NCBI GenBank assembly: GCA_964016885.1
Contig: OZ024742.1
Location: 320,168,001-320,232,000 of the forward strand
Length of the DNA: 64,000 nucleotides
From: Eledone cirrhosa
Lineage: Eukaryota
Reading direction: 5' to 3'
Shown: positions 11,307 through 62,968 of the stretch, piece after piece
Layout of the letters: each line of letters starts with the position of its first letter
Position numbering within the stretch: position 1 is the first letter of the stretch
Translations under genes and position numbers: made by a program
Notes under the pieces: generated by a model
Database searches by the model: none
Seen by the model: only the letters and a program-made list of their open reading frames with translations
Told to the model about the DNA's origin: nothing

Positions 11307-12311
<1,005 letters not shown>

Positions 12312-15070
12312 CTACAAATAAAAACAAAAAGTGTCAATATCATGTAAACGAGGAGTAATCTATAAATACAACATTCATATAGATTCGATTGCTCAAGGAA
12401 ACACCACATCACCCGGTCTGAGAATTGAACTCAACCTTTCGATTGCAAGGCCAATGCTCTAACCACTAAGCCATGTGCCTCAATGACCTATATATGACGC
12501 ATAATGAATCATTCAAAGCCTTGGTAGATCCAATGCAACGAAAGACCTGCGAAGCTACGAACGGGTATCATTAGAATTACCCAAACGCCTTCAATCTATC
12601 TTGAATAGTCACCCAAAAGGAAATGGTTAAAGTAGGTCGGCTTGCTCAAACAAACGACCTGGGGCTAAATACAACCAGACCGACCATAGATTATATATTC
12701 ATGAACCGAACATTCACAGCAGATCTTTAAAACTGGACCGACAGCTTGTGATTAAACATTCCACAAAACACCCAATAGCATAAATGAACACCACTGCGAA
12801 AGTCGTCTCATCAATCCATTCGCCACTTATCCTACATTCTTTTCCTCACTTCAAAAGTATTATTTTAACATTGAACAGCAATAGACAATGAACGAGCATA
12901 TATATTACATACAGAAAAGGAGATTGATGTCAGCTGAAACTTTACACCAGGAAAATTAATTGAAGAAAAAGGCGACAAAGAAAAACATTTTATATCGGAC
13001 ATGTACGAAAATGTAAAAGGAAACGTATAAAACTGTTTGTTTTATGTAAACCAGCTTAGTGTTAATGCTACCACTAGATTTTTAAAAATCAAAATTTTCC
13101 GCTTCGTAGTTGAATGTCAAGGATACGAAACGACTGGCATTGACAAGGAAAAAAAAAAAAAAAAAAAAAAAGTTTCCACGGGTCTTAAAAAAGATTCAAG
13201 TGATAGATTATACAGTCGCACTTAATTTTACAGAAAGGAAGTGGTTGGTTAGTTGAAGCGAAGAACGATGTCTAAGCCATCTGAGTTAATTGGCTTTGTT
13301 TTACACGATAAAATTCAAATCCTTGAAAACTAACCCCCCCCCCCCCTCCCTCCTCTTTAATCTTTATACGGATAGGTAGGTGAAACAAACGAACTAATAG
13401 TCTGATCCATGTATTTCTTCCTACAACCGTGTTCTGCACAGAATTAGGCCCAGATAATACGAGCCAGCCAAGTGATCTACCAATGAACATGCAGACCCAC
13501 TCCCACATCTAGCTTAACAAGAGCAGAATCACTATTGAAGCAGCTACAATGATTGAGGGGGGGGGGGGGAGATAAAACCACTGAGAAATATGGAGGAGGT
13601 ACTGATACACCCACAACCCTACCACCACTATGAACAGACAAGGCGAGTGTCAAATTTGTTTGAACTTGCCGTAAGTTGACTTGAGATTCGTATTTACTAA
13701 AAAAAAAAAAAAAGTCATTGTCACTGGAAAGAACGTTAATTTGTATGGTAATGTTCAATGCTTGCGAGTAAAGCAGCTAAGTTCGGTGTAGGCGTAGTCT
13801 ATCATTCTGGCTCGAATTCCGATTGGAGCTAATTTAATTTACATCACTACTCTTGAGATTTGCAACAAGACCCCCTACTCCCTATTTTCAGTGATTTAAA
13901 GCTCGTGCACTTATAGATATATAAATATATATATAAAAAAAACTCACCCCCCGGTCTTGAGTGGGAGACGAAAACCGGAAAAAAAAAACAAAAAAAAAAA
14001 AAACCCTGCTAGTCAGACTGCACACCCGCCCCATGTTAAGCCTTGATCGTCACGAGGTCCAAGTTAAAGTAATTTACCTTTTATAAGTCGCAAATTAAGT
14101 GTATTAGATTTTCAGAGAGCAAGAAATACTATTTATAATGATACTTTCCCAAAAGCATTGAATGCGCAAATAAGTTGGTGGAGGGGGACCCGAACCATTC
14201 TTGAAAACGGTGCAGTTCAGTCCATTTTCCATACCATTTCCAAACTAACGCCCAAGATAGGATATTTTATAATTGATATGAAACTTATAGAGAATGACAT
14301 TGGTGGAAGTAATGACGTCAACATCATTCTCAAAAGGAATTAAATCACTAAAATATTTTTAATGGGCGTGTGGGATAGGATTTAAACATTCATGATGTAA
14401 AAACCACCTTACAGTGAATCTGAATCCAAGTAAAAATTTGCGAGGCTAACAAAAAAAAAATAAAATGTTTTATTTAGATTACCATTTTATTCACCAAGTG
14501 GTATTTGAATAAGAAAAGTCTGCACTGCACACTATACGTAAATCCCCAATTTGGCTGCTCGTGGTTTAGCCTAAATTATGAGTTAGCTATGCGAGGAGGG
14601 GAAATGTCAGATTTAGCATTAATGGTCTTATTAAAGGAGAGAGGGCAGCCGGCCAGCCAAGCAAGCGAACAGCAAGTCAGGCTTGGAGGAAATCTTTCGT
14701 TACACATCGGAGCACGGTGTCAGCAGAAGCCTTTCTATGAACCGAGATAGGAGAGGAAGGTGATTGTCTTAGAGAACTAAGAGAGTAAATAGCAAGCAGT
14801 CGGTGGGTGCCACTTTGAATGCGAGGAAGTTGCCTGTGTGTCAGAAAGAGTGCGTACGCGTGAGAACAAGGGTGTATATATGCGTGTGTGAGAAATGGAG
14901 TGTATGCGTGTGTGAGAGGGTGAGTGTAGAAGTGTAGCAAGTCTTTCCTTTGTTCGTGAAAAAAGTCTGAACACGAAATGATTAAATTTAGCATGAAATA
15001 TTTTACAAACAATTCACCCGCATATAGCAGAGGAGCAATTGAATTTAACCAGCTTATATATGAATTTAAC

Positions 15071-15116
<46 letters not shown>

Positions 15117-15472
15117 ATAATATATTATATATATATATAATATATTATATATATATATATATGTGTGTGCGAAAAGAGGGGAAATAAAATACTTTTTCCA
15201 CGATTATTAAATCGTAAAATGTTTTAAACTAAAAGATTAACAAAAAAAAACAAAAAAAAAAAAAAAGAAATTATGAAACCTTAAGAGAAAAAGAGATATT
15301 AAATTATATGTAACCACCCACTCGCACGTGAATCAAATCCAGTTCAATGAAAATTTACCGGCGAGACTAATTACATATAGCAAAAAATCCATAACCTTAA
15401 AAAAAAAAAAAAACTTAATACATTTAATTATATATTTTAAATGAAGAAAATCTTATTAGGAAGTAGAGTTCA

Positions 15473-15646
<174 letters not shown>

Positions 15647-18900: not shown

Positions 18901-21900
18901 CAACTTCAATATTCTATTTCAACCTAGACAAATAGACAAGGATGCATATACGTGATCTGATGACTTGCTAGAAATAGTAACATGATATATTTAAAACCAC
19001 ACACACGGTAAGGTGTGTGTATGAGAAAATGTCTTGAGAAAAAAAACACATTGTATGTAGTTTTATATAATATTGCCTTATAAAATACAGATTAAAAAAG
19101 CCGGATAATGTGAAGAAGAATGCATTTGATTATAGACTTGCTCGATCTGGGCCTACTTGGGAGTTAAACAGCATAATATAATATATATTTTAATCGATGG
19201 ATGGCATCTATACCCTAAGCCCCATACTTTAATCTGACACGACCCCTAAACACATACATGCATAAACATATCTCAATCAGTGACAATTTCAAATCATATA
19301 TAGAATGTTTTTAATCTATAAGCAAGCAACCCTAGCCAAGTTCTGTTTGCAGTTTTCAGAAATATATATATATATTCAATATTCAATTTAAGTGAAAAAA
19401 TTACATTTTATAGCTCAAATCACTTTATTATATGTAGTGTTTCTATGCTGATAATTTATTAAGCGGCTTTCGAAAATGCCGGTCGGGTCAGACCGTTGCA
19501 AAGTAAATAATACGACGTCCACTAGGTGATTCTTCGTTGTCGCTCGATCTACTAGAAATAGCAGGCAAATCTCCATCATATCACATCTTGTTGTTTAAAA
19601 AAGGAAAGAAGAAAAGATAAAAAACGGAGGAAAGACTGTGGATACTGTTAGTTCTAGGTACACAATGTCTATATAAAACAATGGCTGAGATGGTCACGAA
19701 TGGAACGCTTCTTAACCGATAAGTCTATTTGATCAACACTGACCAGGGGCTAAACAACGAGTCTTCTTTTTCCTCTACTACTACCACTATTACTACCACC
19801 ACCTGGTTGATTCATTGACGAAAAAACGAAGTAGTAGTAACTTAATCATAACCACAAAAAGTCATGATGTACGCTTACGTAATCTAGTAACGGAAATAAA
19901 GTCGCAGAAATATATTTCGGAGAGAATAAAGTCACAGCGGAAATAAAGTCAATGAAAAACTTCGTTAAATAAATGATTTAAGATGTTTTTTTCTTGTTTT
20001 ATTTTAAGATATTGAATAAAGGTCTCCCCTCTCCCATCGGTGCTAGCACGACTGAGGTTGAGGAGTTCAATTCGTAACCACGTGGCCTCGGGTTCTGTCC
20101 CTCAGTCTGACATATTGGGCAAGTGTCTGCTACTAATAACTTCGGTGGGGTTGACGATTGACCTTGTGAGTGAAATTTCGAAGACAAAAAACTGCTGAAG
20201 CCTGTCATATATATTTGCTCTAGGGTTCTTATATGCTTGATATATATTTATCCTTATCGAGCCCTCTTTGGATTTTAGTCTTCACATTTATTATTATTAC
20301 TATATATATATATATATATATATGCCATACTGTATCAAATCATGTATTATCAGTTAAGACATAACTTAAATTATTAGCTAATTACTTCAAATCTTAATAT
20401 TTATGGTATTCAAATGAAGTGCAACCTTTTTTGACCGTGTACATTTTTTTTCTAGCCAACAAAAATTGTGATTTTTAATGTCTTTATTTCCGTTCACAGA
20501 TTTACAAACTTGCTCAACGAGATTCAATAAACAGCCTTCGAGATTATGGTCTCAGCTAGTTTTAGATTTTTTTAGGCGTGGGGGAAACTATAAAACAAAG
20601 ATTCTCGACATTTTTAATGTGTATAAGATGGGAGAAAGGACAATGAATATATATATATATTAGAAAGAGTCGGGGCCCGACGGCTGAGCTGTTGCTATAC
20701 TCTATTATCCCATGTATCGAGTACTCTGTTTAAAACTGATACCTTATTAAAACGGTTGCTAGTGCATTATTTTAGTTATCTGACCTTCCTTAGGCCCTAA
20801 CTGTCTTGGGCAATTTAAACCTGACGGAGCCCATCATTTTCAAGGCCTGAATACAGCTGATTTCTTCCATCGAAAGAGAGCGGAGGTAAAAGCGGCTGGT
20901 TAAGAACAATCAACCTTAGTCCTGGACTGGTATTTTATTTATCAACTGCAAAAAATGGAAAGTAGATTTCGGCGAGATTTGAACACGGGGTGGAAAGGTC
21001 TAAAGCATAAAAAAAATAAAAAAACTTCTCAATTTAATTCGTCGAGTCCAGGGATTTGCAATTTATATTATTTGAAAATCAAGATGAAAATCCTTTAAAA
21101 TGATGCCGAAGATTTAATGATTGTCTTTGTCTTTAATTATGCATTGGTCTGTCTTAATCGAGCAGACTAAGATGCAAAAGCATTCTAGCTGTGACTAACT
21201 CAACCCAACCCAACCCAACCCGTCTTTCACCCACAGCTCATTTCAAAACGATATTTTCCAACATGTCCTTATTTCTTTTTTTTTTTTTCTTTCTAAAAGA
21301 TGATAAAGTGTGAATTGAGAGAGGGATATTTAGCTGTTATTTCTAGCAGGTCGACTGACCACCTCGATATACTCCCTCATTAGCACATGGAATTCCATTA
21401 ACGTTTATAACACTTGGTTGAGTAAAGGAGCATTTTCTTCATTTGTTCGTTTATCATATTCTTCTTTCAAGAATTATATTTATCGTTTTGTTTTAAAAGT
21501 AATTTTTGTTAATTATCAATCAGCTATTGATTAATTTATTTATGAAATTTTCTTAAGTCCACTCCTGCGTTGATAAGGTAGTAAATGATGGTATTTTATA
21601 TACAAGTTACAATTCCTTAAACTACGCCTACTAAACTACCAACAAAACCACCTGCATCATCATCACCATCATAATAATCATCAGCATCCGCGTCATCGTC
21701 AACAACACAAATCTATCTGCCGGCATCAACAACGATCAAGTAGAACCGGCAGAACCTTATTATTTGACTTTGCCTTTCATCCTTACGGGGTCGATAAAAT
21801 AAAGTACCAGTAATACACTAGTATTTGCTGACCTTGTGCCAAAAGTAGAAACAATTAAAATTTCTTATCATTTACTCTTTTATCTGTTCCAAGCCATCCG

Positions 21901-22041
21901 GTTGAGGCCATGCTGGGGCACCGCCCTTGAAATTTATATAAAAAATAAAGCAATAACATGTACAAACAACTTACATCGATCATTGAATTTAAATATAGAT
22001 TTTAAAAATTGTTTTATTTCATTGACGGAGAGCAAGCTAGG

Positions 22042-22074
<33 letters not shown>

Positions 22075-22391
22075 GGTGAATAGCACATATATAACATAAT
22101 ATAATAGGGGTTTACATGCTATAAATAATATCTACACTACTTTCTTTAAAGTATGAAGTACTATGTCGAATAATGGTTTACTAGTCTCAATTAGTAGCAT
22201 TTTATATCTCTCACGTAACCCATCTCGCCTATTTCTCTCTATATAATATATATACATATACATGATCCTGTGAGTACACAGGTAAAACTCCTAACTAACA
22301 AGACTCATCTCTTCGCCATAATTAAGAATATATATATACAAACACAGCTGATATAGTGTACTTTCTAGTGATAAAAAAAAAAAAATTATAA

Positions 22392-22638
22392 CCGAAAGAC
22401 TGAAGTTGTCCCCTTTCAAGTAGTCGTCAGTACATTATATATAGTGGTGTATAGTAGTCGTCAAATCAAACATTGGCTTGCCATTGCTACAGTTAGTGAT
22501 CATCAGCAATGATGTTCACATTCACTTCTTCTTTCTCTCCAAGACTCATAGACATTACCCTATTGCTCTCCTCATGCCGCTCTACTTGCTCATCCCACTC
22601 CTCTTTATGTTTGTCTCTCTTTCTTTCTCTCCATGTCA

Positions 22639-22690
<52 letters not shown>

Positions 22691-22937
22691 TGACATGGAG
22701 AGAAAGAAAGAGAGACAAACATAAAGAGGAGTGGGATGAGCAAGTAGAGCGGCATGAGGAGAGCAATAGGGTAATGTCTATGAGTCTTGGAGAGAAAGAA
22801 GAAGTGAATGTGAACATCATTGCTGATGATCACTAACTGTAGCAATGGCAAGCCAATGTTTGATTTGACGACTACTATACACCACTATATATAATGTACT
22901 GACGACTACTTGAAAGGGGACAACTTCAGTCTTTCGG
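22392..22937. repeat. Perfect 546 bp palindrome centred on (TA)n
   Basis: The arms are exact reverse complements. Mirrored ORFs 22478..22693+ and 22636..22851- give identical peptides. Confidence 0.95.
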
Positions 22938-23905
22938 AGTGTGCCCAGGCGCTCACCGCCCTCTGGCAGGCGGATCCGGTTATCAGTGGAGACTCCACCG
23001 CAACATTCTATAGAGGGCTGGTACGCAGCAGGTGCGACGACGCCCTCGGAGAAGCCCTAGACATGGAGGAGGACGAACTGGCCAGCCTTTTCGGTAGGAC
23101 ATTTAGCCCGGGACCTATGGACAACTTCCAGAAGTCCCTGGCCTGGCAGTGCTACCGAGGGGCTTTACCCGTTCGAGAAAGGCTCTACAGACACGGGCGC
23201 CCGGGTAGGGACCCCGCCAAAAAGATCTGTCCCAGATGCGTGTGCGACGAGGAAACCGTTGCACACGCATTAGTACACTGCTCGGGCGTAGCCGATCTGT
23301 GGGGCTATGTCGAACAACTGCTGTCAAGGGTGGGACCGATCCGGTTGACCACCGAGTCTATTGTAATGATCAAGCCGCCTCCCCCCTTCAAAGATGAAGC
23401 AGAGGCGGTGTTTCTGTGCGTAATAGCCATGGCGAAAGAGGTTGTATGGTGGACGCGTCTGAAAGGACTGAGGTCGGGCACCTTTCTCTCTGGCCAACAA
23501 CTGGTCCGTTTCTTCCGATATCATTTCGGAAGAAGGATCAGGATGGAGAGAGAGGTGCTGCACCCCAGCCGTTTCTATGAAAGATGGGTGAAAGTGGCGA
23601 GAATGGCCCGTGTGAATGGGCCTTCACTCTACATCAGACTATAGGTGAGGAAGATGAAAGACCAAGGGAGCACCCCTTCTCTGTGCTCCTGAGGAGAAGG
23701 GTTGCACACTTTTTTCGGGGGTGTGTGCGACCCCCCAAGGCGCCTCCTCTCTATTGAGGATTTTGTTAAAAATTTTATTTTTTGTTATATCTTATTTTAT
23801 TTTTATATTTTGTTATTGCCTTCTCCTTATTGAGGACGCCTTTTTGTGTAAACTCCCCCCTTTGTACTTGTCCCACTTTTGATGCCCTAGTGGCAAATAA
23901 AAGAA
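22938..23905 (+). mobile_element. 5'-truncated Tx1/L1-clade LINE: ORF2 C-terminal zinc-knuckle region + 3' UTR
   Basis: ORF 22910..23644 contains W.CYRGALPVRERL...CPRC...ETVAHALVHC...W, typical of the L1/Tx1 ORF2 C-terminus. AATAAA at about 23897 precedes (TA)n. Confidence 0.85.
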
Positions 23906-24359
23906 ATATATATATATATAATGTGTGTGTGTGTACATATATACATGTTTATAAACACACATACACATATATGTGTGTGCACGCATGTATATATATGAAA
24001 CTAATAACTGTAATTGTATCTCTGTGTTTGCGTTTTTTTGATCTTGAAATATATGTACATATTCCGGGCTGGTTGTCTGGCGAGCTTGTAAAAGGACGAC
24101 TCTAAACGAAAACACTTCTTAGCTTTGGTTAAATCATGTCTATAGGAGAAAGTTACTCTGATATAAAACCCTTTGTGCTGGGACTGCTCGTGTCCACTTT
24201 GAAAATCTTTTGGGATAGCTTAAGATTAGCCCTGGATTAACCATCAAGCAAAATAAGCATGTACTTAGTGCCTAAAGTAAAGAGGGCCTTACAATAATTG
24301 AAATGTACATATATTTTCATTTTTTTTTGTGAGACCCCTTTAATGTATTTTTTTAACGA

Positions 24360-24499
24360 AGGTACATGCCGCCTCGACCTGTTTCTGGACCAGGCCAGCA
24401 GGGTGAAGGAAAGGACCTATTAAGTGTATTTGGACCTAAAATGCATGAGCATTGCTGACTTTAGTCAGTGATAGTCTTCACCGAACACGACTGGTCAGC

Positions 24500-24542
<43 letters not shown>
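24360..24542 (+). mobile_element. Probable RTE-like LINE 3' end with (ATC)n tail
   Basis: Ends in cagccatcatcatc..., the same terminus as the RTE at about 62960 (gcagccatca). Confidence 0.5.
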
Positions 24543-25047: not shown

Positions 25048-25181
25048 AAAGTTAATCAAGGTTCAATGAATGTATCAAAGAATGAGTTTTACAATAGATT
25101 GGAAGCACTCAACAGTTATAAAAAAAGGTTATTAATATTAATTCAAAATATTAACAAAATAGATATTCTTGTGATCAATTA

Positions 25182-25248
25182 TATTTTATTATACATATTT
25201 CAGAGGTACTGAGTTAAGTTTAACAGTACGTCCTCATCAGATAAAATA
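25182..25248 (-). ncRNA. Minimal type I hammerhead ribozyme
   Basis: tattttat CTGATGA ggacGTACTG-ttaaacttaact-CAGTACctct GAAA tatgta TA ataaaata. Stem I is 8 bp, core intact, AUA triplet. Confidence 0.8.
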
Positions 25249-25369
25249 GGATGATGCATGACATACCCTGACATAGTAGATGGTTAAGATTCAGTCATGA
25301 CTGAATCTTAACCATTGTATAATAAAATATAATTGATCACAAGAATATCTATTTTGTTAATATTTTGAA

Positions 25370-25404
<35 letters not shown>

Positions 25405-25734
25405 AAATATATATGTATATATCTCTGACCCCGACGGCAGAGCTCAAGCCGTTTCGACGTCTATTTCTGGACGTCCAGAAATAGCCGTCGAAACGGCTTG
25501 AGCTCTGCCGTCGGGGGTCAAACATTTTCCTATTACCCACTCTACTACCCTAACTATTGAGTACCCTGGTGCGTTATGGTCCATCTGGTTCCTTACCACA
25601 CCTCCTTCGTTATATATATATATATATAACGAAGGAGGTGTGGTAATATATATAACATCTAGGTGTGGTAATATATATAACATCTAACTCTTATTTATAT
25701 CTATATGAATTAGTATAAATTTATCCCTATAAAT

Positions 25735-26595
25735 ATATAAGTATCTACACGTACATACATATATGTATACAGACGTACAGTAGTATGTATATATATATAC
25801 ATACATATATATGTACGTATGGATTCACCGAATATTTATTATAATGCTCGGTGTATTTGTAAACAAACATCCCGTATTAAGCCGTAGTGTCCAGCAACCA
25901 TCGTTGCTCGTTTGTTCAACACTGACAAAGGAACGCTGTACTAGTTTCAAGCTTATTAGCTATCGTCAGCAACGTATACTTTCCTGCCAGATTATTGAAC
26001 GTATATACTTACCTTATGCATATTAACGGCTGAGTAGCCCAATTTGCATATCGAGTGGGTTTATCGGCCGGGTGCACCGAAAACGATAAACGGAAAAAAT
26101 GAAACGAAATTTCATTTCCCACTCTTAGTACGGCTGTTACTTAAATATAAGTATGTTCACGTACATACATATATGTATACAGACGTACAGTAGTATGTAT
26201 ATATATATACATACATGCACACATATATATATATGTACGTATGGATTCACCGAACATTTACAATCTGGCAGGAAGGTATACGTTGCTGACAATAGCTAAT
26301 AAGCTTGAAACTAGTACAGCGTTCCTTTGTCAGTGTTGAACAAACGAGCAACGATGGTTGCTGGACACTACGGCTTAATACGGGATGTTTGTTTACAAAC
26401 ACACCGAGCATTATAATAAATGTTCGGTGAATCCATACGTACATATATATATGTGCGCATGTATGTATATATATATATATATATACATACTACTGTACGT
26501 CTGTATACATATATGTATGTACGTGTACATACTTATATTTAAGTAACAACCGCACTAAGAGTGGGAAATGAAATTTCGTTTCATTTTTCCGTTTA
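25735..26595. repeat. Complex fold-back duplication of an HHR-bearing element
   Basis: 25735-25995 is inverted at about 26256-26541. 26086-26260 repeats part of it directly and is inverted at 26420-26595. Mirrored ORFs 25811+ and 26247-. Confidence 0.85.
25933..25975 (-). ncRNA. Minimal type I hammerhead ribozyme
   Basis: acgttg CTGACGA tAGCTaataAGCTt GAAA CTAG TA cagcgt. Palindromic stem III, GUA triplet. The inverted copy at 26280-26322(+) has core CTGACAA. Confidence 0.82.
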
Positions 26596-27329
26596 CCTAT
26601 AAATATACCTATCAATTAAATTAATTTAATTTCTTTTTATAGATCTAAATTCCTTATGTTTTAAATAAGATTGATATTTTTTCACTAACACATTTATCGT
26701 AAAATTTTATTCTCCTTAGATTTTAACATTAGCATTATTCTTTAATAACATCAAATTTTCGTGTACCTTTCACCGGCTTGACCTATTTTCATCCGCAAAG
26801 TAATCTTTTTATTCAAAATACTCTTTCCATTCAAAACTGAAGTCTGCATTCCTCTACCCCTAAATTAAATTTCTGCTACTACTATTCTATTAACTTGACC
26901 ACTTACTACTTTTCTATTGGTCAATTCAAAACCTGTTCCCAAACAGACCTATTATATTAAATCTTTGTTGTTTTTTTTCAATAAACAAATATCATTCTGA
27001 GTTCAAATCCCGCCGAGGTTAACTTTGCCTTTCTTCCTTACGGGGTCGATAAAATAAAGTACCAGTAATGTACTGGGTAATTGCAATTATTTCTGAAGAC
27101 AGCATATATATGTGTAGGTATGTATATTCCTTCTGATAGTTTGTAAAATTTTTACATAGATATACATACCAACACACACATATATATCCAAGAAACGATC
27201 GTAGAATGATGATTTTTTTAATATAAGGAACTGTTTCTTTGTTTTTATTCATTATTTTTATTAATTTATATATATATAGGATGATGAGGATATATATATA
27301 TTAAGATGCTCACGATCATAGGGTCGACC

Positions 27330-32294: not shown

Positions 32295-33899
32295 CGTTTC
32301 TGAATTTGTTTAGCAAGATTCTTTATCTGAAAACGTGTGTTGAAACCGATATTGTCATGTTGCCAATAAGAAACACACGCACCAGTGCTTTCACTTCAAT
32401 TTATTATAAATTAAATTATAAACTTAAAAATTTATAAATTTCCGGTTGGTTGGTTGGTTCCACAACCGGACGGTTGTTCATATATTGTCAAAGTTCTTTC
32501 GTCACACATTCTGTGACCTCATCAGCGACTGGGGATTCTTTTCTTTGTTTTGTGCCTCTCCTTTGTTCTGTCCTACGCCATCTTGTTTTTGTGTGTGTTG
32601 TGTGCTTAGTTTGCGCATGTGTTACATCCGGGTGTCTGTGTGTGTTTTTATTTGTTTATTTATTTGTTTATTTACATGTTACTAGTTAGTTGTTTGTTCT
32701 ATGTGTGTGTATGTTTTCATTTTGTCCTTAATTGTAAGTTGTGATGTTGCTATTCCATTCATGTTTTCTATTTAATTTTGGTTGGAGTTCATTTATGTTT
32801 ATTGCCTCTGTGATTTGTCTAAACATTGCGTCTTTTCTGTGCGTAGATTTTATTTTTATTTCTATGTTCTCTAATTTGCCCTTATGTTCTATTTTAGCAT
32901 GTTGGTGGAGTACTGATGAGTCTTTTCTATCTTGGAATTCTCGCCAGTGTTCATTTAATCGTTCTCCTGTGCTACGAGCTGTCTCGCCTATGTACATTAT
33001 ATTCTTATCTTTACATTGTCCCTCAGTACACCTTATGCTATATACTATGTTTTTAGTTTTACAGTTAATATGGGGGCTTAGTTTACAGATTATGCATTTC
33101 TTATCTATACAGGGAGGTCTTTGAAAAGGGTATGTATTACTAATAAGTATTTTTATGGAGGTACCTGGTCTTTCCACTATCTTAATATTTAGTTTAAGTT
33201 TATCTAGGGCCCTTCTAAATTTGTAAGCTAGTTCACCTCTAGGGGTTGTATTGATGAACATTACACTCTGGTATTTATTGCTATCATACCATGAGTTTAT
33301 TTTATTAACCTTATTCTTAATTCTTTCTATTCTATTCCAAAATTTGCTCCTATACAAGGGGCAGGTCCCAATGTATCATTATATACCATTTTTTCCCATT
33401 TGGTCTGGCTCCTCTATATACTGTGATTTTATCTCTCTGGTTGTAACCAGAGAACTGCATACGGTGGATGAAGTATTGTATGTGTCTCTCTAGTTCTTTG
33501 GGGTTGCACATGCGGGACACGTTCTTCATCACCTTTACTAAATCCGCAATCAGTAAGTTGATTTTGGTGTGATCCGAAACAGCTGAGTTTCGGTGGATCA
33601 GGTATTTGGAAGTCATGGGTTTGACATAATGGGAATGGAGGATTTGTATTTTTGTTATTAATGGTTTCTAACCAGAGCTCTGTGTCTAGTACAGGTAATC
33701 GATGGTTGGGGTGTTTGCTTGGGTAGTCTATAGTAACTTTAATACTCTGGTGGATGGAGTTAGCTATTTGCTGGATGCTTTCAATGGTGTTTTTCTCTAA
33801 TTCCTGACTATTCTCTAGTGGAGGTGTTTTTACTACGATGTTTATATCATCAACGTAGCGGGAGTACATAATCAGGGTTAAGAGGTTGCTGTCTTCTAA
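32295..33899 (-). mobile_element. 5'-truncated Penelope-like retroelement (RT C-terminal part + GIY-YIG endonuclease + 3' pLTR)
   Basis: YSRYVDD...LPVLD (33429..33869) and IVYSIRC...MYIGETAR...ERLNEH...TEAINI...LN (32728..33357). Frameshifted. 3' end abuts (TA)n at 32294. Confidence 0.92.
32487..32529 (-). ncRNA. Penelope pLTR hammerhead ribozyme
   Basis: gtcg CTGATGA gGTCACAgaatgTGTGAC GAAA gaac TT tgac. Confidence 0.8.
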
Positions 33900-33923
33900 T
33901 TAGAAGACAACAACCTCTTAACC

Positions 33924-34880
33924 TTCCGTATTCCCAATATTTGCTCCCAAATACAGGAAGTCCTCAACCAATTCTAGCGGCTTCCCGCCTACATTAGTGA
34001 TCCCATCTGGCTTCTCAACATTCTCTACCAGATATTTTGTTTTAGTCTCATTCATTCTCAGCCACACACTCATCGACACAGTCTCAACCGCCTGCATCAA
34101 ATCCTCTGCCTCCTTCACTGTATTTGTCACCAAAACTATGTCGTCGGCAAATTCAGCATCCGATATCTTTTTCGCCTTAACTCTCCTGCTCTGAGCCGGT
34201 GCTACAGTAAAGCCAGAGTCCTGGTGTTTCCCCAGTGCAAGGTGCATACAATAGTCCACTACGATGATAAAAAGGTAGGGAGCCATTGTATCTCCCTGGA
34301 GCACTCCAGCCAGTATCTCAAAGAACTCTGTCATCCCATCAGGTGTAATGACACGGGCTTTGGTGTTGGTGTAGAGCAGTGATATCAGGTCCACTATCTT
34401 CTTGAGGATTCCATAAGCCTGTAAGATCTTCATCAGGCAGTGACGGTCCACAGAATCAAAGGCCTTCCTAAAGTCAATGAAAACCATGACCGCAGGAAGG
34501 CACTTTGCTCTAGCTCCCTCTAATATCCTCCTCAGCATCAGGATGCGACTGGTGGTTGATCTTCCCTCTCTGAAGCCGTTCTGGATGAAAAACTCAGAGT
34601 TGTATGGGAGCCTCCCAAAAGTCAGCTCAAAAGTGACACAGAGGAAACTGAGGTTAGCTGGACATGCTCACCGACATCCAGAGTTGACATTGCACTCAGT
34701 GCTCCCGTGGGATCCCCTACATGGACACACTGGAAGAGGAAGATCAAAGTTAACGTATGTTGATGCCCTAAGGACAGACACTGGTCTGTTGGAGACGCAG
34801 GACATGGCAGCGATAATGAGGGACAGAGACCGCTGGAGAGAACTCGTCCATGGATCTCGGGAATTTTACCCGCCCTAGAA
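33924..34880. mobile_element. RTE-like LINE with inverted 5' segment (twin-priming type)
   Basis: RT motifs (QNGFR, FIDFRKAFDSV, GVLQGD, FADD, FLYLG) on the minus strand at 33924-~34585. The C-terminus (RLAGHAHRH...RGR...DRDRWR) is on the plus strand at ~34586-34878 and ends at TA/CA repeats. Confidence 0.88.
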
Positions 34881-34897
34881 TATATATACATACATAT

Positions 34898-35010
<113 letters not shown>

Positions 35011-35290
35011 ACAAAGGAATTGTGGTAAGGAACCAGATGGACCATAACGCACCAGAGTACTCAATACTTAGGGTAGTAGAGTGGGAAATAGAAAAAAAGT
35101 ATGACCCCGACGGGATAGAAATGATTTCTACGGGACTAGAACTGTTACATTCGTATGAAATCATTAGGAATGAAACAGTTCAAGTCTTGTAGAAGACATT
35201 TCTGTATAAAATAAAGAACCTTATTCTCTATTAACGTGTTGAGAATCTTATTTAACTACACACACGCACACGCATGCGCGCTCACGCGCA

Positions 35291-43133: not shown

Positions 43134-43185
<52 letters not shown>

Positions 43186-43204
43186 CATATATATATGCCA
43201 TATA

Positions 43205-43383
<179 letters not shown>

Positions 43384-43433
43384 GTATATATATATATATA
43401 TACGTATATATACATATACATATATATATACAC

Positions 43434-43484
<51 letters not shown>

Positions 43485-43556
43485 TACATGTATATATATA
43501 TACATATATGTATATATGTATATATGTATATATATATGTATATGTATATATATGCA

Positions 43557-44424
43557 GAGGTTATATTTAATTTGTTGGGATTCAACAAGCTTAAACATTT
43601 TTATAACTGATATAAAGCACTCAACAATTAGTGGAGTAAATACACAATATATTAATAAATGAAAACTATATTTATAAAACCATATTTATTTTATTTTACA
43701 TATTTCAAGGGCCACCAAGGCAAATTATGGTGCGCTTTGATCAGATAAAATACAGATTTGTTTTATAAATAAATATTGACATACCCGGAAAAAAGACAAC
43801 CTTAACGGTTGGAGCTTCCTGGATAGTGGAGATAATATTTTATTGAAGGTAATACAAAGTTATGAGTGAGTATGCAAATGATTTTAATAATTTTGATTTC
43901 TAATTTTTAATTTTAATTTAATTTTTCAACTTATTATAAATATTATAATCGCAACGTAATGAACCCTACATTCTAAATATTATTCTTCCACGTTAATCTT
44001 ATTTCTTCTTTCATTTCTTCTTTCACTTAGATATATTTACGCTATGTATATTTTTCCATTTAAACTTATTTCTTCATTCATTCTGACTTTCTTCAATATC
44101 ACTATGTATAATCGTTCTTTCTTTCCTCTTCTGGATTTCTCCTTCCTTTTCTTTTTTTCTTTTTTTCTTCTCTCTCCCTTACATATCATCCTCTTCCAAC
44201 AGTTTAATTTAAATAAACCGTTATCTTTTCAACTTTTCGGACACTCATTTGCATACTCACTCATAACTTTGTATTACCCTCAATAAAATATTATCTCCAC
44301 TATCCAGGAAGCTCCAACCGTTAAGGTTGTCTTTTTCCGGGTATGTCAATATTTATTTATAAAACAAATCTGTATTTTATCTGATGAAAGCGCACCATAA
44401 TTTGCCTTGGTTGCCCTTGAAATA
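43557..44424. mobile_element. Non-coding PLE-like element with ~180 bp inverted repeats carrying HHR motifs
   Basis: 43701-43881 is inverted at 44245-44424. HHR motifs at 43687-43752(-) (core mutated to CTGATCA) and 44373-44430(+) (CTGATGA...GAAA). Confidence 0.75.
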
Positions 44425-46680: not shown

Positions 46681-46682
<2 letters not shown>

Positions 46683-46942
46683 AAGGCGGGTAAAATTCCC
46701 GAGATCCATGGACGAGTTCTCTCCAGCGGTCTCTGTCCCTCATTATCGCTGCCATATCCTGTATCTCCAACAGGCCAGTGTCTGTCCCTAGGGCATCAAC
46801 ATATGTTAACCTTGGTCTTCCTCTTCTAGTGTGTCCATGTAGGGGCTCCCAAAGGAGCACTGAGTGCAATGTCAACTCTGGATGTCGGTGAGCATGTCCA
46901 GCCAACCTCAGTCTCCTCTGTGTCACTTTTGAGCTGACTTTT

Positions 46943-46945
<3 letters not shown>
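46681..46945 (-). mobile_element. 265 bp 3' end of the same RTE-like LINE as 34586-34878, embedded in (TA)n
   Basis: Translates [30 protein letters not shown]...GSREFYPP*. (TA)n on both sides. Confidence 0.9.
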
Positions 46946-47581
<636 letters not shown>

Positions 47582-47901
47582 TTTATAAGTCGTTTGGAAG
47601 CCCCGACAATGCAAATGGGTAAATCTCCCGGTAACAAGGTCCGGTGGTGGAGAGAGAGATATGTAAGTGGGTGTACGTTGAGATGCGTGGTGTGTATAAG
47701 ATGTGTGAGATGTGTAGAATGAAGGGAAGAGTAAAAGAATAAAAATAATAATAACAACACAAGAGAGAGAGTTACCTTGGGAGAGATTTAATAGTCCCTA
47801 TATATTTCGCATTCACATCCATCAACTGGGGTTTTTTCCGGGGTGGGGGAAAAGGTTGTCTGTCGGACAACTCGGAACGCGTCTTAAGCTGTTTGTTGAT
47901 T

Positions 47902-48708: not shown

Positions 48709-48800
<92 letters not shown>

Positions 48801-48946
48801 ATACTTTGGGAGGGTCATGTTGCCAATAAGAAACACACGCACCAGTTGCTTTCACTTCAATTTATTATAATAAATTTATAAATTTAAGAATTTATAAATT
48901 TCTGGTTGGTTGGTTGGTTCCACAACCAGATAGTTGTTTATATATT

Positions 48947-48989
48947 GTCAAAGTTCTTTCGTCACACATTCTGTGACCTCTTCAGTGAC
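48947..48989 (-). ncRNA. Penelope pLTR hammerhead ribozyme
   Basis: gtca CTGAAGA gGTCACAgaatgTGTGAC GAAA gaac TT tgac. Confidence 0.8.
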
Positions 48990-49606
48990 TGGGGATTCTT
49001 TTCTTTGTTTTTGTTTTTGTGCCTCTCCTTTGTTTTGTCCTACGCCATTTTGTTTCTCTGTGTATGTTGTGTGCTCAGTCTGCGCATGCGCCACATCCGG
49101 GTGTCTGTGTGTGTTTATATTCGTTTATTTATTTGTTTATTTACATGTTACCAGCTGGTTGTTTGTTCTATGTGCGTGTGTGTTTTCATTTGTCCTTAAT
49201 TGTAAGTTGTGATGTTGCTGTTCCACTCATATTTTCTATTTAATTTTGGTTGTAATTCTTTTATGTTTATTGCCTCTGTGATTTGTCTAAGCATTGCGTC
49301 TTTTCTGTGTGTAGATTCTATTTTTATTTCTATGTTCTCTAATTTACCCTTATGTTCTATTTTAGCATGTTGGTAGAGTACAGATGATTCTTTACTATCT
49401 TGAAGGTCTCGCCAGTGTTCATTTATCCGTTCCCCTACACTACGAGCTGTCTCACCTATGTACACTATATGTTTGTCTCTACATTGTCCTTCAGTACATC
49501 TTATGCTAGTAAAGAATCATCTGTACTCTACCAACAAACAAATGGCGTAGGACAGAACAAAGGAGAGGCACAAAAACAAAAACAAAAACAAAGAAAAGAA
49601 TCCCCA

Positions 49607-49649
49607 GTCACTGAAGAGGTCACAGAATGTGTGACGAAAGAACTTTGAC
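49607..49649 (+). ncRNA. Penelope pLTR hammerhead ribozyme (inverted copy)
   Basis: Same sequence as 48947-48989 on the opposite strand. Confidence 0.8.
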
Positions 49650-50146
49650 AATATATAAACAACTATCTGGTTGTGGAACCAACCAACCAACCAGAAATTT
49701 ATAAATTCCTAAATTTATAAATTTATTATAATAAATTGAAGTGAAAGCAACTGGTGCGTGTGTTTCTTATTGGCAACATGACCCTCCCAAAGTATAACAA
49801 TATCGGTTTCAACACACGATTTCAGATAAAGAATCTTGCTAAACAAATTCAGAAACGATATATATATATATATATACCTATATATGTATATATAACGAAG
49901 GAGCATACCGCACCAGAGTACTCAATACTTAGGGTAGTAGAGTGGGTAATAGGAGAAAGTATGACCCCGACGGCAGAGCTACACTTAGTCCAGAAATAGC
50001 CGTCGAGGGTGAAAGCAGCGATTCTTTGCTTAAACTTTAATCTGTTATTTTAATAAATATTTGCTCTACGGTTCTTATATATTTGATATATATTTATCCT
50101 TATCGAGCCCTCTTTGGATTTTAGTCTTCAAATTTATTATTATTAC

Positions 50147-58261: not shown

Positions 58262-60683
58262 TAAACCTCTTCTTAGGACATTAGTTGTCCTTAATCTGAC
58301 CTCTGACTGTGACTATTCGGGTTTATATTATTATCCGCGCTTGAAAAGCATGCTGTACTAAGAAGGTTCATTCAAGATTCGTGGCTGGAGTCTCTTGCTT
58401 AAGACAGTAATTGAACCCAATTCTTGACAAGTGCATTATTGACTTCACCGGTATTTGAACTCAACGTAAAGAGTCAGAATAAATATAGCAAAGCATTTTG
58501 TCCGATTCTCTAACGATTCTGATGTGCATCCAATAATGGATTCTGATTTAAATACCAGATCAGCAATTTTGGAAGAGAGCAAATGGGGTAAGTTAGTTAA
58601 ATCGACTCCAAGTACTTTATTTTATCGATGGCAAAGTTAACCTGAACTCAGAACTTAATTGAGCTGAATCTGGATTTGAATGCCGTATAGTGTTGTGTCC
58701 GACGTTCTAACGAGACTGCAACCTCACCGACTTTGAACGTAATTGCACAGAAAATATCGGAAACAAAAATATATAAATAAAGAATCAAATAAATAAATAT
58801 ACTGTATACAAATATAGTTATTAAAAAAACAGAACAGAAAACATTTTTAACTTTGTATAATAGAATAGATCATGATAGAATAGATTATGACAGCCTTTAA
58901 CCGCGATCACGTTGAGATATGTCTATATGATAGAGTTCAAATCCCGCCGGGGTTAACTTTGCCTTTCATCCTTACGGGGTCGATAAAATAAAGCACCAGT
59001 AATGCACTGGGATAATTGCTGGCCTTGTGCCAAAAGTAGAAACAATTATCTATATTGAGAAAGAATTTGCATGAAGAAACTTCATATAAATATCAAGGGA
59101 TGTATGACAAATCATAAGAAAAGGAACTGATTCATATCAGAGCAACGATAGAGGTTAAAACAACCTGTTCACCTCCAATAACGTAGTGACACATTCCCTA
59201 CTCATCAAGGAGACAGTCATGTATCTCCCCCTCTTGTCATTAGCATCAACTGCATACATAGATCCAGACTTGAAGGCTTCAAAATTCCATGGGACTGACT
59301 AAACAATTTACCCTTTTGATATCAACCTACCAGAAACCGTCTTTGGTTCTAAGATTTACAAAAAAAAAAAAAAAAAAAAAGAACCCTAACAAACCGTTCG
59401 TTTTAAAATGTTTATATTATTTTATATTAATCTTTCATTATAATTTTATGTAAGAAACTTTTCCTCAGTTTATAATCCAAACGCCGGCTTAATAACAAGA
59501 AAATCAGTTATTTTACTGAATCCCTCCAAATTTGTTTTTCGGAATTAATTGGAAATCATAGACAGTCTTTTATTAGAAATATGGTAAAGATTAAAAGAAA
59601 AAAAAAATCAATGTAAATTTTAAAATTGCAATATATAATGTCTGCTGCCTGCTTAGCAACAAGTAATGTTGTCAACAAAAAGTAAGAACGATTGAGTAGA
59701 GAGTTATGGTCGTTTCAGTCATGACCATCTTTCCCTTTATTCCAATATAGTGTATCTAAGACAACATTATCCAATATATGCCCCCATTTTCAGGACGGTA
59801 AAGTGTAATTTGAGGAAGATTTGGTTGCTATTTCTCGCATGTCAAGAGACTACGTAGAGACTTCTTCGTTGGCTCGTTATAGATAACATTGAAAGCATTA
59901 CAAAGACAGAATAGAATTTCCAATAAATCATTAATAATAATTTCTTTGAGAGATGAAACCATATAAGATCAAAGAAAGAAATAGCCGACATGCGAATACT
60001 AAATCTTGAGTCTATGTGAATTTCTAGTTTAGTACGGCGAAAGATTTTGATGGTGGCGAAGTGTCAGAATCGTTTGAGCGTCGAATAGAATGTCTTGCAT
60101 TTTACCTTAACTAACAGATTGCTATGCCATACCATGCCATGAGCCTTTAACATCTGACAGAGTCGTTATGGTATTTAAATCTGAAGGAGTCTATCCTCAT
60201 CCAGGTCTGAACATAGCTGATTTTCATTTCTTTCAATGAAAAGCAACAGTAAAGCAGAGCATAATTAAAAACAGTATATCAAAATGTAGTACTGTTTTTA
60301 ATACCGCTTCTGCTTTGCTGTTGCTTTTGATTGCTCTTGTAATTTGCAATATATTAATTGGTATAGTATGAACCTCATCTATGGTATGGAGTTATCTCTT
60401 GTATGTAATACATTTGAAACTTCAAACAATATCTAAACCCCTGAAGATATGAAGATATGTCGAGCGAGGGACAGATACCGCGTATGTATCGTAGTATGGC
60501 CCACCGCTCTACATTGAAACATATGTAGAATACAAATTATGTTTTAAGTATAAATTGGTTATTCACTCTCTATTAATATATATATATATTAATAGAGAGT
60601 GAATAACCAATTTATATGATATGTCCCAAGGCTCTGATACCATCAACACTATAAACACAGCTGGCATATCTAAGAACTGACTA

Positions 60684-60819: not shown

Positions 60820-60821
<2 letters not shown>

Positions 60822-62968
60822 TATACAGTCTGCTCAGGGAGGTGTATGGTCCGACCTGTTCACAAATATCACCACTTCGCTCCGGGGACGGCAAGGAATT
60901 GCTCAGAGATCCGAAGGAAATCCTGATCAGGATCAACAGACCATCAGAAATTGATGATGAGTTCATCCGGTCGATTCCATCCAGACCTACAAAGCTGGCA
61001 ATGGCTGATCCTCCTTCATTTGATGAGGTGGCGAAGGCCATTGTCAAATTAAACAGCGGCAAGTCATTTGGAATGGATGGACTGAGTGCCGAGATTTTCA
61101 AGTGTGCTGGTGATAACTTCTTAAACCACCTCACTGATCTCTTTGTGAATGTTTGGAATGAAGAAGATGTGCCACAGGATTGGAAAGATGCATTGATGGT
61201 GGTACTTTACAAAGGAAAGGGAGCCAAAGGTGACTGTGGCAACTACAGAGGTATTTCACTGCTATCTGTGGCTGGGAAGATCTTGTGCAGGATATTGTTG
61301 GACAGATTGATACAGCACATTGCTGTTGAGGTACTTCCTGAGTCCCAATGTGGCTTTAGGAATAGCAGAGGTACTGTTGACATGATTTTCTCGGCCAAAC
61401 AACTTCAAGAGAAATGCATTGAGCAGCGCATGGACTTATACCAAGTTTTTGTCGATCTGACCAAGGCATTTGACACCGTTAATCGGAAGGCTTTGTGGGT
61501 TATTTTAGAGAGATTGGGCTGTCCTAAAAAGTTTGTGAACATTCTGAAACTCTTCCACGATGACATGCAGGCATGGGTGAATGTTGGAGGTAAACTGTCT
61601 GAGCCAATCTCGGTTGAAAATGGTGTCAAGCAGGGTGATATACCTGCACCAACTTTGTTTGCCTTGTATTTCGCGATGGTGTTCTTCATGGCCTTCAAGG
61701 ATTGTCAACACGGTATCTATCTTAGATATCGCACTTTCGACAAGCTGTTTAACCTTAGGCGTCTCACTGCCAACACTAAGGGACTGAGTACCTTGATCAG
61801 AGAAATTTTATATGCAGATGATTGTGATCTCTTTGCACACTCCCAGAGTGACATGCAACACCTTATGGATTCTTTTTCCAATGCATGCAGTGCTTTGGGA
61901 CTGACAATCAGTCTGAAGAAGACTGTCGTCATGTACCAACCTGCTCCGAATAAAGTTTTCAATGAACCCTCCATACATGTATACGGTCAAAAGCTGAAGG
62001 CTGCTGACACATTTGTGTATTTGGGGAGTACTCTGAGTGTGACCTGTTCTCTGGATGCAGAAGTTGGTCTACGTGTTAGTAAGGCAAGTGAGTCATTTGG
62101 AAGGCTCAACGACCGTCTTTGGTGCAGGCGAGGAATCACAATGAGGACCAAGGTGAGAGTGTATGCTGCATGAGTGCTGTCAGCTTTGCTGTATGCATGT
62201 GAGATATGGGTTGCCTAAAAACGGAATAGCCACAGACTGGAACGGTTTCACCAGCAGTGTCTCAGAAAGATGCTTGGTATCAAGTGGCAGATGCATGTGA
62301 GTGATGTTGAGGTCCTTGAGAGAAGTGAGTGTCGGAGCATTGAGAGTATCATCCACCAACGGCGTTTGCGATGGACCGGACACCTCTGCAGAATGGAGGA
62401 TGATCGAATCCCAAAACAACTCTTGTATGGAGAGCTTTGTGAGGGTAAGAGACCACCTCACAAACCAAAGCTCCGATTCAAGGATTGTGTAAAGGACTCA
62501 TTGAAAAAAACTGGTTTGATGATGGCTGACTGGGAGATAGAAGCTCTTGAAAGAGAAACTTGGCGTGGAATGGTGAATGATGGGGTCCATATTTTGAGGA
62601 CAGACGTATAGGGCACGAGAAGATCAAAAGGGATGTGCGTAAGCAATGCCCTGGTGTATCTCTCGAAACGATCGGTGTCTCCATTGAATTGAAGTGCCCT
62701 GAGTGTGGAAAAATTTGCTTGAGCAAATCTGGTCTCAGGAGCCACAGTCACAGCCAGGTTCAAAGAGAACCAGTGAACTATGATCTCCACGGTGTTGTGA
62801 GGGTTCACGGGCAACCTGATGCGGGACCTCAAGCCAGGGAGATCCATAGTTGTCGTCAGTGTGTGAAGGAGTGCAAGTCTTTAGCAGACTTGAAAAGCCA
62901 TATCCGAGCGTCCCACATCTGAATCTGACAAGCAATTGCAATACTCTTGGCAGAGTTTGCAGCCATCA
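60820..62968 (+). mobile_element. 5'-truncated RTE-clade LINE with RT and C-terminal C2H2 zinc fingers (pseudogenised)
   Basis: ORF 60842..62173 (YRGISLLS, QCGFR, DLTKAFD, GVKQGD, YADD, YLGS) continues through stops to 62270..62611 (RRLRWTGHLCRM) and CPECGK...H / CRQCVK...H. Flanked by (TA)n on both sides. Confidence 0.93.

What the first reader, a model, noticed from the sequence alone, without database searches (positions are those of the whole stretch)
22392..23905. 546 bp perfect palindrome around (TA)n fused directly to a Tx1/L1 fragment
Seen: 250 bp of left flank is copied in inverted orientation across the TA tract with no mismatches. The sequence then switches at 22937/22938 into a LINE 3' fragment that ends in another TA tract. 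Inference: a broken (TA)n end snapped back on itself, was extended, and was then joined to LINE cDNA. Arm identity implies a very recent event. Such a palindrome would be cruciform-prone.
Basis: partly seen in the sequence, partly recalled or inferred. Interest (0 to 1): 0.7.

Follow-up and report, generated by a model that had tools for sequence, protein, structure and literature searches.

The report
Foldback scar at a LINE insertion
A truncated jumping gene landed in a TA repeat and the broken DNA end copied its own flank backwards, leaving a perfect 546-base palindrome, which is a clean example of a rare but already described repair scar.

Summary
22392-22937 is a perfect, spacer-free palindrome: 250 bp, (TA)23, then the same 250 bp inverted. 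It is fused to the 3' 969 bp of an L1-clade LINE: 235 intact ORF2 codons with zf-RVT, a 3'UTR with AATAAA, then (AT)7A. Homology to relatives starts exactly at 22937, which both parts share, giving 1-3 nt of microhomology. Named relatives are cephalopod. The best reading is one insertion event into a (TA)n tract: the upstream end folded back on its self-complementary TA, was extended 250 nt, and was joined to the truncated cDNA. This structure is in print: foldback inversions of about 52-220 bp upstream of 0.3-0.4% of human somatic L1 insertions (PMC10191854), R2 snap-back junctions and yeast break foldbacks. Sequence cannot say which strand primed. The Tx1 label was not tested, no second copy or empty site was found, and no reads were available, so an artefact remains possible (about 0.12). 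Two shorter TA-centred palindromes in the window suggest TA foldback is common in this genome. Verdict: real-looking, a new member of a known kind, modest interest.

The parts
22392..22641 (+). Left arm: inferred original flank and template of the inverted copy. It has no other copy in the window and ends 6 nt short of an A13 run at 22373-22385.
   Evidence: (blastn: only itself and the right arm)
22642..22687 (.). (TA)23, the centre of symmetry (22664/22665); inferred foldback primer and upstream part of the target tract
22688..22937 (-). Right arm: exact inverted copy of 22392-22641, inferred templated extra DNA at the LINE 5' junction
22935..22937 (+). Junction. G22937 is both the last base of the arm and the first base of the conserved Glu codon. 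Microhomology is 1 nt, or 2-3 nt if the preceding LINE codon was CTG/TTG/CGG/AGG or ACG.
22937..23644 (+). 5'-truncated L1-clade ORF2: C-terminal 235 codons with no stop or frameshift, GC 57%; zf-RVT at about 23132-23302
23645..23905 (+). LINE 3'UTR with a T-rich stretch and AATAAA at 23896-23901. It ends AAAAGAA, with no long poly(A).
23906..23920 (.). (AT)7A: inferred downstream remnant of the target TA tract. It could instead be an element-derived tail.

Best explanation
One retrotransposition event. SHOWN: the order is flank, (TA)23, exact inverted flank, 5'-truncated LINE, (AT)7A, unrelated flank. INFERRED: (1) an L1-clade ORF2 protein primed reverse transcription on the bottom strand inside a (TA)n tract and made about 970 nt of cDNA. 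(2) The top strand was cut in the same tract, leaving an upstream 3' end that finished in TA repeats. (3) Because (TA)n is its own reverse complement, that end folded back with no loop sequence and was extended 250 nt along its own strand, after resection or displacement of the bottom strand, by a host polymerase or the element's RT. (4) The new 3' end was joined to the cDNA 3' end through 1-3 nt of microhomology, and fill-in or replication fixed the palindrome. The product is a repair scar, not a functional unit. It should be cruciform-prone and would give a 273-bp hairpin RNA if transcribed.
For: LINE homology begins at the very base where symmetry ends: 28 of 70 usable alignments start exactly at that Glu, including the 7 most similar, and the arm-derived residues lack the W-H-L motif of the close relatives. 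TA tracts bound the inserted 1218 bp on both sides, as expected from a split target. [quoted passage not shown] In yeast, foldback, synthesis, displacement and joining with 0-5 nt microhomology (median 2) is described (PMC11724301 section 15). Resection leaves 3' ends, and the upstream top strand is the 3' end here (established knowledge). Two other perfect TA-centred palindromes with complex arms of 18 and 27 bp occur among 72 TA blocks, against 7 of 5112 mismatched flank pairs. Two other truncated LINEs lie between TA tracts without a palindrome. O. vulgaris has 13 recently active L1-Tx1 families with 421 insertions (PMC13282606 Table 1).
Against: There is one copy only: no empty allele, no second family member (searches found none) and no reads. 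The 1-3 nt microhomology is no more than chance would give. TA targeting by this family is not shown, and (AT)7A could be an element tail. The bases after the LINE end in TATAAT, which matches how the palindrome would have continued; 14 of 288 TA runs end that way (4.9%), a weak point for the two-step rival. The 250 bp arm is slightly longer than the 52-220 bp reported for L1. The host is only inferred to be a cephalopod.
Confidence: 0.55

Rival explanations
1. Same single event, other primer: the cDNA 3' end switched onto the bottom strand 250 bp upstream, copied towards the break through the TA tract, and its TA end then annealed to the upstream TA end.
For: It gives the identical sequence. 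R2 snap-back junctions are read this way: the cDNA 3' end primes on cDNA or, less often, on nearby rDNA (PMC11371274; PMC11331408; passages). Zebrafish LINE 5' extra nucleotides are copied from flanking DNA (PMC4760211 passages; PMC4245944 parts 2-3).
Against: It needs invasion of duplex DNA, or an exposed bottom strand, with only 1-3 nt of pairing, and the bottom strand is the one that resection removes (inference). The TA palindromes without a LINE 5' end show that foldback at TA needs no cDNA.
Confidence: 0.17
2. Artefact: a fold-back chimeric read or an assembly turn-around at the self-complementary (TA)23, later stitched to the LINE.
For: Perfect identity and exact centring on (TA)n are what such artefacts would look like (inference). 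Palindromic reads from amplified DNA are described (PMC13265396, search listing only).
Against: A second independent error would be needed to join the arm to a LINE with only 1-3 nt of overlap, at a point that looks like an ordinary 5' truncation. The window has no N. The short TA palindromes nearby include one followed by templated 25-nt repeats, which looks biological.
Confidence: 0.12
3. Endonuclease-independent start: the TA tract extruded as a cruciform and was cut into a hairpin-capped end. That end was opened on the bottom strand at 22391/22392 and unfolded into the palindrome, and LINE cDNA primed on the other end bridged the break.
For: TA repeats are cruciform-forming break sites repaired by Pol theta MMEJ (PMC13645644 passages). 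LINE fragments of other types also sit between TA tracts here, so TA use is not peculiar to this element.
Against: The LINE has an intact 3' end with AATAAA directly at the TA tract, as in normal target-primed insertion. Nothing marks 22391/22392 as a nick site.
Confidence: 0.07
4. Two steps: an older foldback palindrome with 257-bp arms existed, and the LINE later inserted within its last 7 nt.
For: The sequence after the LINE ends in TATAAT, matching the expected continuation TTATAAT; 14 of 288 TA runs end this way.
Against: It needs a hit within about 7 nt of the end of a still-perfect palindrome, plus a (TA)n tail on the element. A rough hand estimate using borrowed rates (421 recent insertions; 0.3% foldback) favours one event by well over tenfold, even allowing for the 20-fold hint.
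Confidence: 0.06
5. The 546 bp is a hairpin MITE or foldback transposon that happens to abut the LINE.
For: The arms are perfect inverted repeats, and the arm (GC 42%) is richer in GC than the 1 kb to its left (30%).
Against: There is no target-site duplication (TATAA on the left, AGTG on the right) and no other copy in the window. No 5' part of this LINE lies to the left (tblastn with 4 long relatives). The centre is a pure microsatellite.
Confidence: 0.03

Closest known systems
Foldback inversion (inverted duplication) upstream of the target site at human somatic L1 insertions (Nam et al. 2023, PMC10191854; passage seen)
   Same: An inverted copy of upstream flank sits between the target site and the LINE 5' end, with a similar size (about 52-220 bp against 250 bp).
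   Different: Here the element is a cephalopod-type L1-clade element in an assembled genome, not a somatic human clone. The turn is a (TA)23 tract, so the palindrome has no spacer. There is no long poly(A), and no TSD can be defined inside the repeat.
R2/PRINT 'snap-back' 5' junctions (PMC11371274, PMC11331408; passages seen)
   Same: Reverse-complemented nearby target DNA is fused to the element's 5' end.
   Different: R2 uses a restriction-like endonuclease at 28S rDNA. The authors assign priming to the cDNA 3' end, and most snap-backs copy cDNA rather than flank.
Local foldback inversions at yeast double-strand breaks (PMC11724301; abstract and section 15 seen)
   Same: Hairpin priming at a resected end, synthesis, displacement, and joining with 0-5 nt microhomology.
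   Different: Mostly 5-34 bp (up to over 150), a 41-nt loop, and no retroelement.
5' extra nucleotides of zebrafish LINE inserts (PMC4245944 parts 2-3 of 5; PMC4760211 passages)
   Same: Extra DNA at the 5' junction is templated from flanking sequence, with 1-2 nt microhomology.
   Different: The text seen gives no lengths or orientation for the extra DNA. The primary paper (Kajikawa 2012) was not seen.
Microsatellite-targeting Tx1 elements Kibi (TC)n and Koshi (TTC)n (PMC4494074; passages and section 15 seen)
   Same: An L1-type element sitting in a simple repeat.
   Different: No (TA)n-targeting family was named in the passages seen. Targeting and Tx1 membership were not tested here.

Membership tests
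L1-type non-LTR retrotransposon | ORF2 with AP endonuclease, RT and C-terminal zinc knuckle | tested here: met
   zf-RVT is in the fragment. Close relatives carry RVT_1 plus zf-RVT, and full-length ones (about 1150 aa) also Exo_endo_phos. Only the C-terminus is present at the locus.
L1-type non-LTR retrotransposon | RT closer to L1 ORF2p than to R2 | tested here: met
   A profile of 7 relatives matches L1 ORF2p chains at E about 1e-26 and R2 at 1e-15 to 1e-11. Only these two kinds are represented among the 10 hits, so this is a coarse test.
L1-type non-LTR retrotransposon | 5' truncation with intact 3' end, poly(A) and target-site duplication | tested here: inconclusive
   5' truncation and AATAAA are present. 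There is no long poly(A), and a TSD cannot be defined inside (TA)n.
Tx1 clade | RT phylogeny grouping with reference Tx1 elements | not testable with these tools
No named Tx1 reference sequence was returned, and a look-up of source names could not be made.
Tx1 clade | Target preference (over 20% of copies in one target type, the criterion in PMC4494074) | not testable with these tools
   There is one copy. Scans of the prokaryotic genome collection found no relative (0 of 45 and 0 of 57 candidate stretches), and no eukaryotic genome collection was available.
Foldback inversion at a LINE 5' junction | Inverted copy of the immediately upstream flank between target site and LINE 5' end | tested here: met
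Foldback inversion at a LINE 5' junction | Inverted copy absent from the pre-insertion allele | not testable with these tools
   No empty allele or orthologous locus was available.
MITE / foldback DNA transposon | Target-site duplication and dispersed copies | tested here: not met
   There is no TSD and no other copy within the 64-kb window; this was not tested genome-wide.
Known structured RNA / miRNA family | Rfam match at or above the gathering score | tested here: not met
   0 of 47 listed matches in 21500-24500 reach their gathering score; they are generic hairpin hits.

The most novel reading that the evidence does not exclude
In TA-rich cephalopod genomes, several retroelement types insert into (TA)n, and the self-complementary target turns a rare accident (0.3-0.4% in human L1) into a routine outcome. 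Retrotransposition would then be a systematic factory of perfect, spacer-free palindromes from unique DNA, seeding fragile sites and hairpin (siRNA or editing-substrate) RNAs. The window hints at this: 3 complex TA-centred palindromes in 72 TA blocks, one at a LINE 5' end and one at the end of another repeat.
Probability: 0.2. Interest if true: 0.6.

Novelty: new member of a known kind. Interest (0 to 1): 0.3.

Why it matters
As a single locus it is an unusually clean record of how the 5' end of a LINE gets joined, a step that reviews still call mechanistically unclear (PMC12503042 passage on R2). It extends a junction type known from human somatic L1 and engineered R2 to an invertebrate genome assembly. 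It would matter more if a genome-wide count showed that TA targets strongly raise the foldback rate. That would tie microsatellite content, retrotransposition and the birth of long palindromes together in a way testable with existing cephalopod assemblies. It lies about 6.8 kb upstream of an actin start codon (15616, minus strand); no effect on that gene is shown.

Tried and rejected
Two scans of the prokaryotic genome collection for contaminant contigs carrying this LINE gave no locus (0 of 45; 0 of 57), so the family's flanks and target preference stayed unknown. The viral and metagenome contig collections were not searched. A look-up of source names for five relatives could not be made, so the Tx1 label stayed open. 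blastn of the arm and of both outer flanks found no other copy in the window, so continuity of the two flanks across the insertion could not be tested. tblastn with 4 long relatives found no other piece of this LINE family in the window; its other hits were unrelated RT fragments at about 23-35% identity. Six-frame translation of the arm and left flank showed nothing gene-like. Rfam gave only sub-threshold hairpin hits. The first null for TA-centred palindromes used a complexity filter that miscounted, and was replaced. In one search, 1 of the 4 diagonal hits (15126) is all-AT simple sequence and was set aside, and the printed P value includes the finding itself. For the 2 remaining cases against about 0.1 expected, my hand estimate is P about 0.005. 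The element ends were placed by eye, mostly at TA edges, so those distances are descriptive and not a test. A search for an actin promoter near the locus found one CArG box at 18745 and nothing decisive. Literature: 10 searches listed no paper on TA-centred foldbacks at cephalopod LINE junctions.

Full report
Observation. The window holds a perfect palindrome at 22392-22937 with 273-nt arms, no spacer and no mismatch. Its centre is (TA)23 at 22642-22687, leaving 250 bp of complex sequence per arm. Symmetry stops abruptly, 6 nt short of an A13 run on the left. The fold is about 64 standard deviations beyond 20 shuffles, so chance is excluded. The arm has no other copy in the window, no gene-like frame and no Rfam match at gathering level (0 of 47 listed).

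The element. From 22937 an open frame of 235 codons runs to a TAG at 23642-23644 and contains zf-RVT. Its best relatives are 59-66% identical. They carry RVT_1 plus zf-RVT, and full-length ones add an AP endonuclease domain. A profile of seven relatives matches L1 ORF2p far better than R2 in the PDB. The few named relatives are from Argonauta hians, Octopus sinensis and Acanthosepion pharaonis, so a cephalopod host is inferred. No Tx1 reference was available, so 'Tx1' is a plausible but untested label. After a 261-nt 3'UTR with AATAAA at 23896 comes (AT)7A at 23906-23920.

The junction. Close relatives read W-H-L-E-C at this point, and the window reads the arm-derived S-L-S and then E-C. Of 204 blastp hits, 70 extended far enough upstream to be informative. 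Of these, 28 begin exactly at the Glu, including the seven most similar; the rest extend a few residues by weak similarity or start slightly later. G22937 is therefore shared by arm and element. Depending on the unknown preceding codon, the overlap is 1-3 nt. This fits end joining but is not more than chance.

Age. Zero mismatches in 250 bp bound arm divergence at 1.2% (95%). The frame stayed open in 9% of 2000 simulations at 3% divergence and in 1.5% at 5%. Both parts look young, consistent with one event. Arm homogenisation in vivo or by polishing could mimic this (inference). In O. vulgaris, 13 L1-Tx1 families with 421 insertions are listed as recently active (PMC13282606, Table 1 passage); the window's species is not established.

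Context in the window. Both ingredients recur separately. Truncated LINEs of another type lie between TA tracts at 46681-46945 and 60820-62966 with no palindrome; RTE is my recalled label for them, and their ends were placed partly by eye. Perfect TA-centred palindromes with complex arms occur at 25593-25646 (18 bp) and 60549-60616 (27 bp). Including the finding, that is 3 of 72 TA-containing blocks, plus one all-AT case set aside, against 7 of 5112 mismatched flank pairs at 15 bp or more. The 25593 case is followed by short templated repeats, which resembles iterative end-joining synthesis (recalled). So TA tracts here appear to be both landing sites and foldback points.

Mechanism. The most economical history is target-primed reverse transcription inside a (TA)n tract, cleavage of the top strand in the same tract, foldback of the TA-ended upstream 3' end, 250 nt of extension, and joining to the truncated cDNA. 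The structure is shown; every step is inferred. I give this route 0.55. The same product by cDNA priming on the flank gets 0.17, and by off-centre opening of a hairpin-capped cruciform break 0.07, so a single real repair event totals about 0.8. An artefact gets 0.12 because no reads could be examined, though it would need two independent errors. A two-step history gets 0.06: the bases after the LINE end in TATAAT, matching the palindrome's continuation, and only 14 of 288 TA runs end so, but a hit within 7 nt of a fresh palindrome's end is far less likely a priori. A MITE gets 0.03, with no TSD, no copies and no LINE 5' part on the left.

Comparison with what is known. Nam et al. 2023 (PMC10191854, passage) report short foldback inversions upstream of the target site in 3 somatic L1 insertions (0.3%), plus 1 with twin priming, attributed to about 52-220 bp of extra synthesis. 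R2 transgene insertions have a snap-back junction class that includes reverse-complemented nearby rDNA (PMC11371274; PMC11331408; passages). Yeast breaks give local foldback inversions joined with 0-5 nt microhomology (PMC11724301, abstract and section 15). Zebrafish LINE 5' extra nucleotides are flank-templated (PMC4245944 parts 2-3 of 5; PMC4760211 passages). L1-induced inverted duplications and foldbacks are described in PMC11702581 (passages), and TA repeats as cruciform break sites repaired by Pol theta in PMC13645644 (passages). Tx1 elements that target (TC)n and (TTC)n are described in PMC4494074 (passages and section 15). PMC2912911 (abstract) and PMC12503042 (passages) added little. 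The locus meets the structural definition of a foldback 5' junction; the remaining criterion, absence from the empty allele, could not be tested.

Novelty and verdict. This is a new member of a known kind. What differs is the organism, the slightly greater length and the TA centre that removes the spacer. The ten literature searches listed nothing on this in cephalopods, within a library that lacks most subscription journals. The bolder reading, that TA targeting makes retrotransposition a regular source of perfect palindromes in these genomes, is not excluded (probability 0.2, interest 0.6) and can be tested on existing assemblies. Overall interest is 0.3.

Noticed in passing
window 25593-25690: A perfect TA-centred palindrome with 18-bp arms at the end of a repeat that abuts TA tracts in all 3 window copies (also about 34993-35113 and 49856-49980). 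It is followed by 2.6 copies of a 25-nt unit built from the arm and TA, which looks like iterative templated repair synthesis.
   Followed up: partly
window 60549-60616: A perfect TA-centred palindrome with 27-bp arms, about 170 bp upstream of another LINE's 5' junction.
   Followed up: partly
window 25130-26600: A dense cluster of inverted structures: arms 25130-25195/25316-25381 enclosing a 36-bp palindrome at 25280-25315; an 88-bp palindrome at 25429-25516 (98%); and a larger inverted arrangement at 25735-26595.
   Followed up: no
window 33920-34879: A LINE copy (RTE-like, label recalled) whose RT part is on the minus strand and whose 3' end is on the plus strand, switching near 34590. This is a 5' inversion of the twin-priming type in a non-L1 element.
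   Followed up: partly
window 46681-46945 and 60820-62966: 5'-truncated LINE fragments bounded by TA tracts on both sides, without palindromes. The first is 93.5% identical to 34613-34904.
   Followed up: partly
window 32295-33900 and 48797-49857: Penelope-like fragments (GIY-YIG-like motif near 32994 and 49462; label recalled, no Pfam hit). The second has an inverted terminal segment and TA tracts on both sides.
   Followed up: partly
window 11307-15616 (-): An actin gene: ATG at 15616, intron after the RHQ codons, main exon 11307-12311. The finding lies about 6.8 kb upstream.
   Followed up: partly
window 43701-43881 and 44245-44424: A 181-bp inverted repeat, 97.8% identical, with a 363-bp spacer; the right arm ends beside a short TA tract.
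   Followed up: no
window 46946-47587 and 43134-43553: Very long interrupted TA arrays (about 640 and 420 bp). TA-containing alternating blocks cover 6.8% of the window.
   Followed up: no
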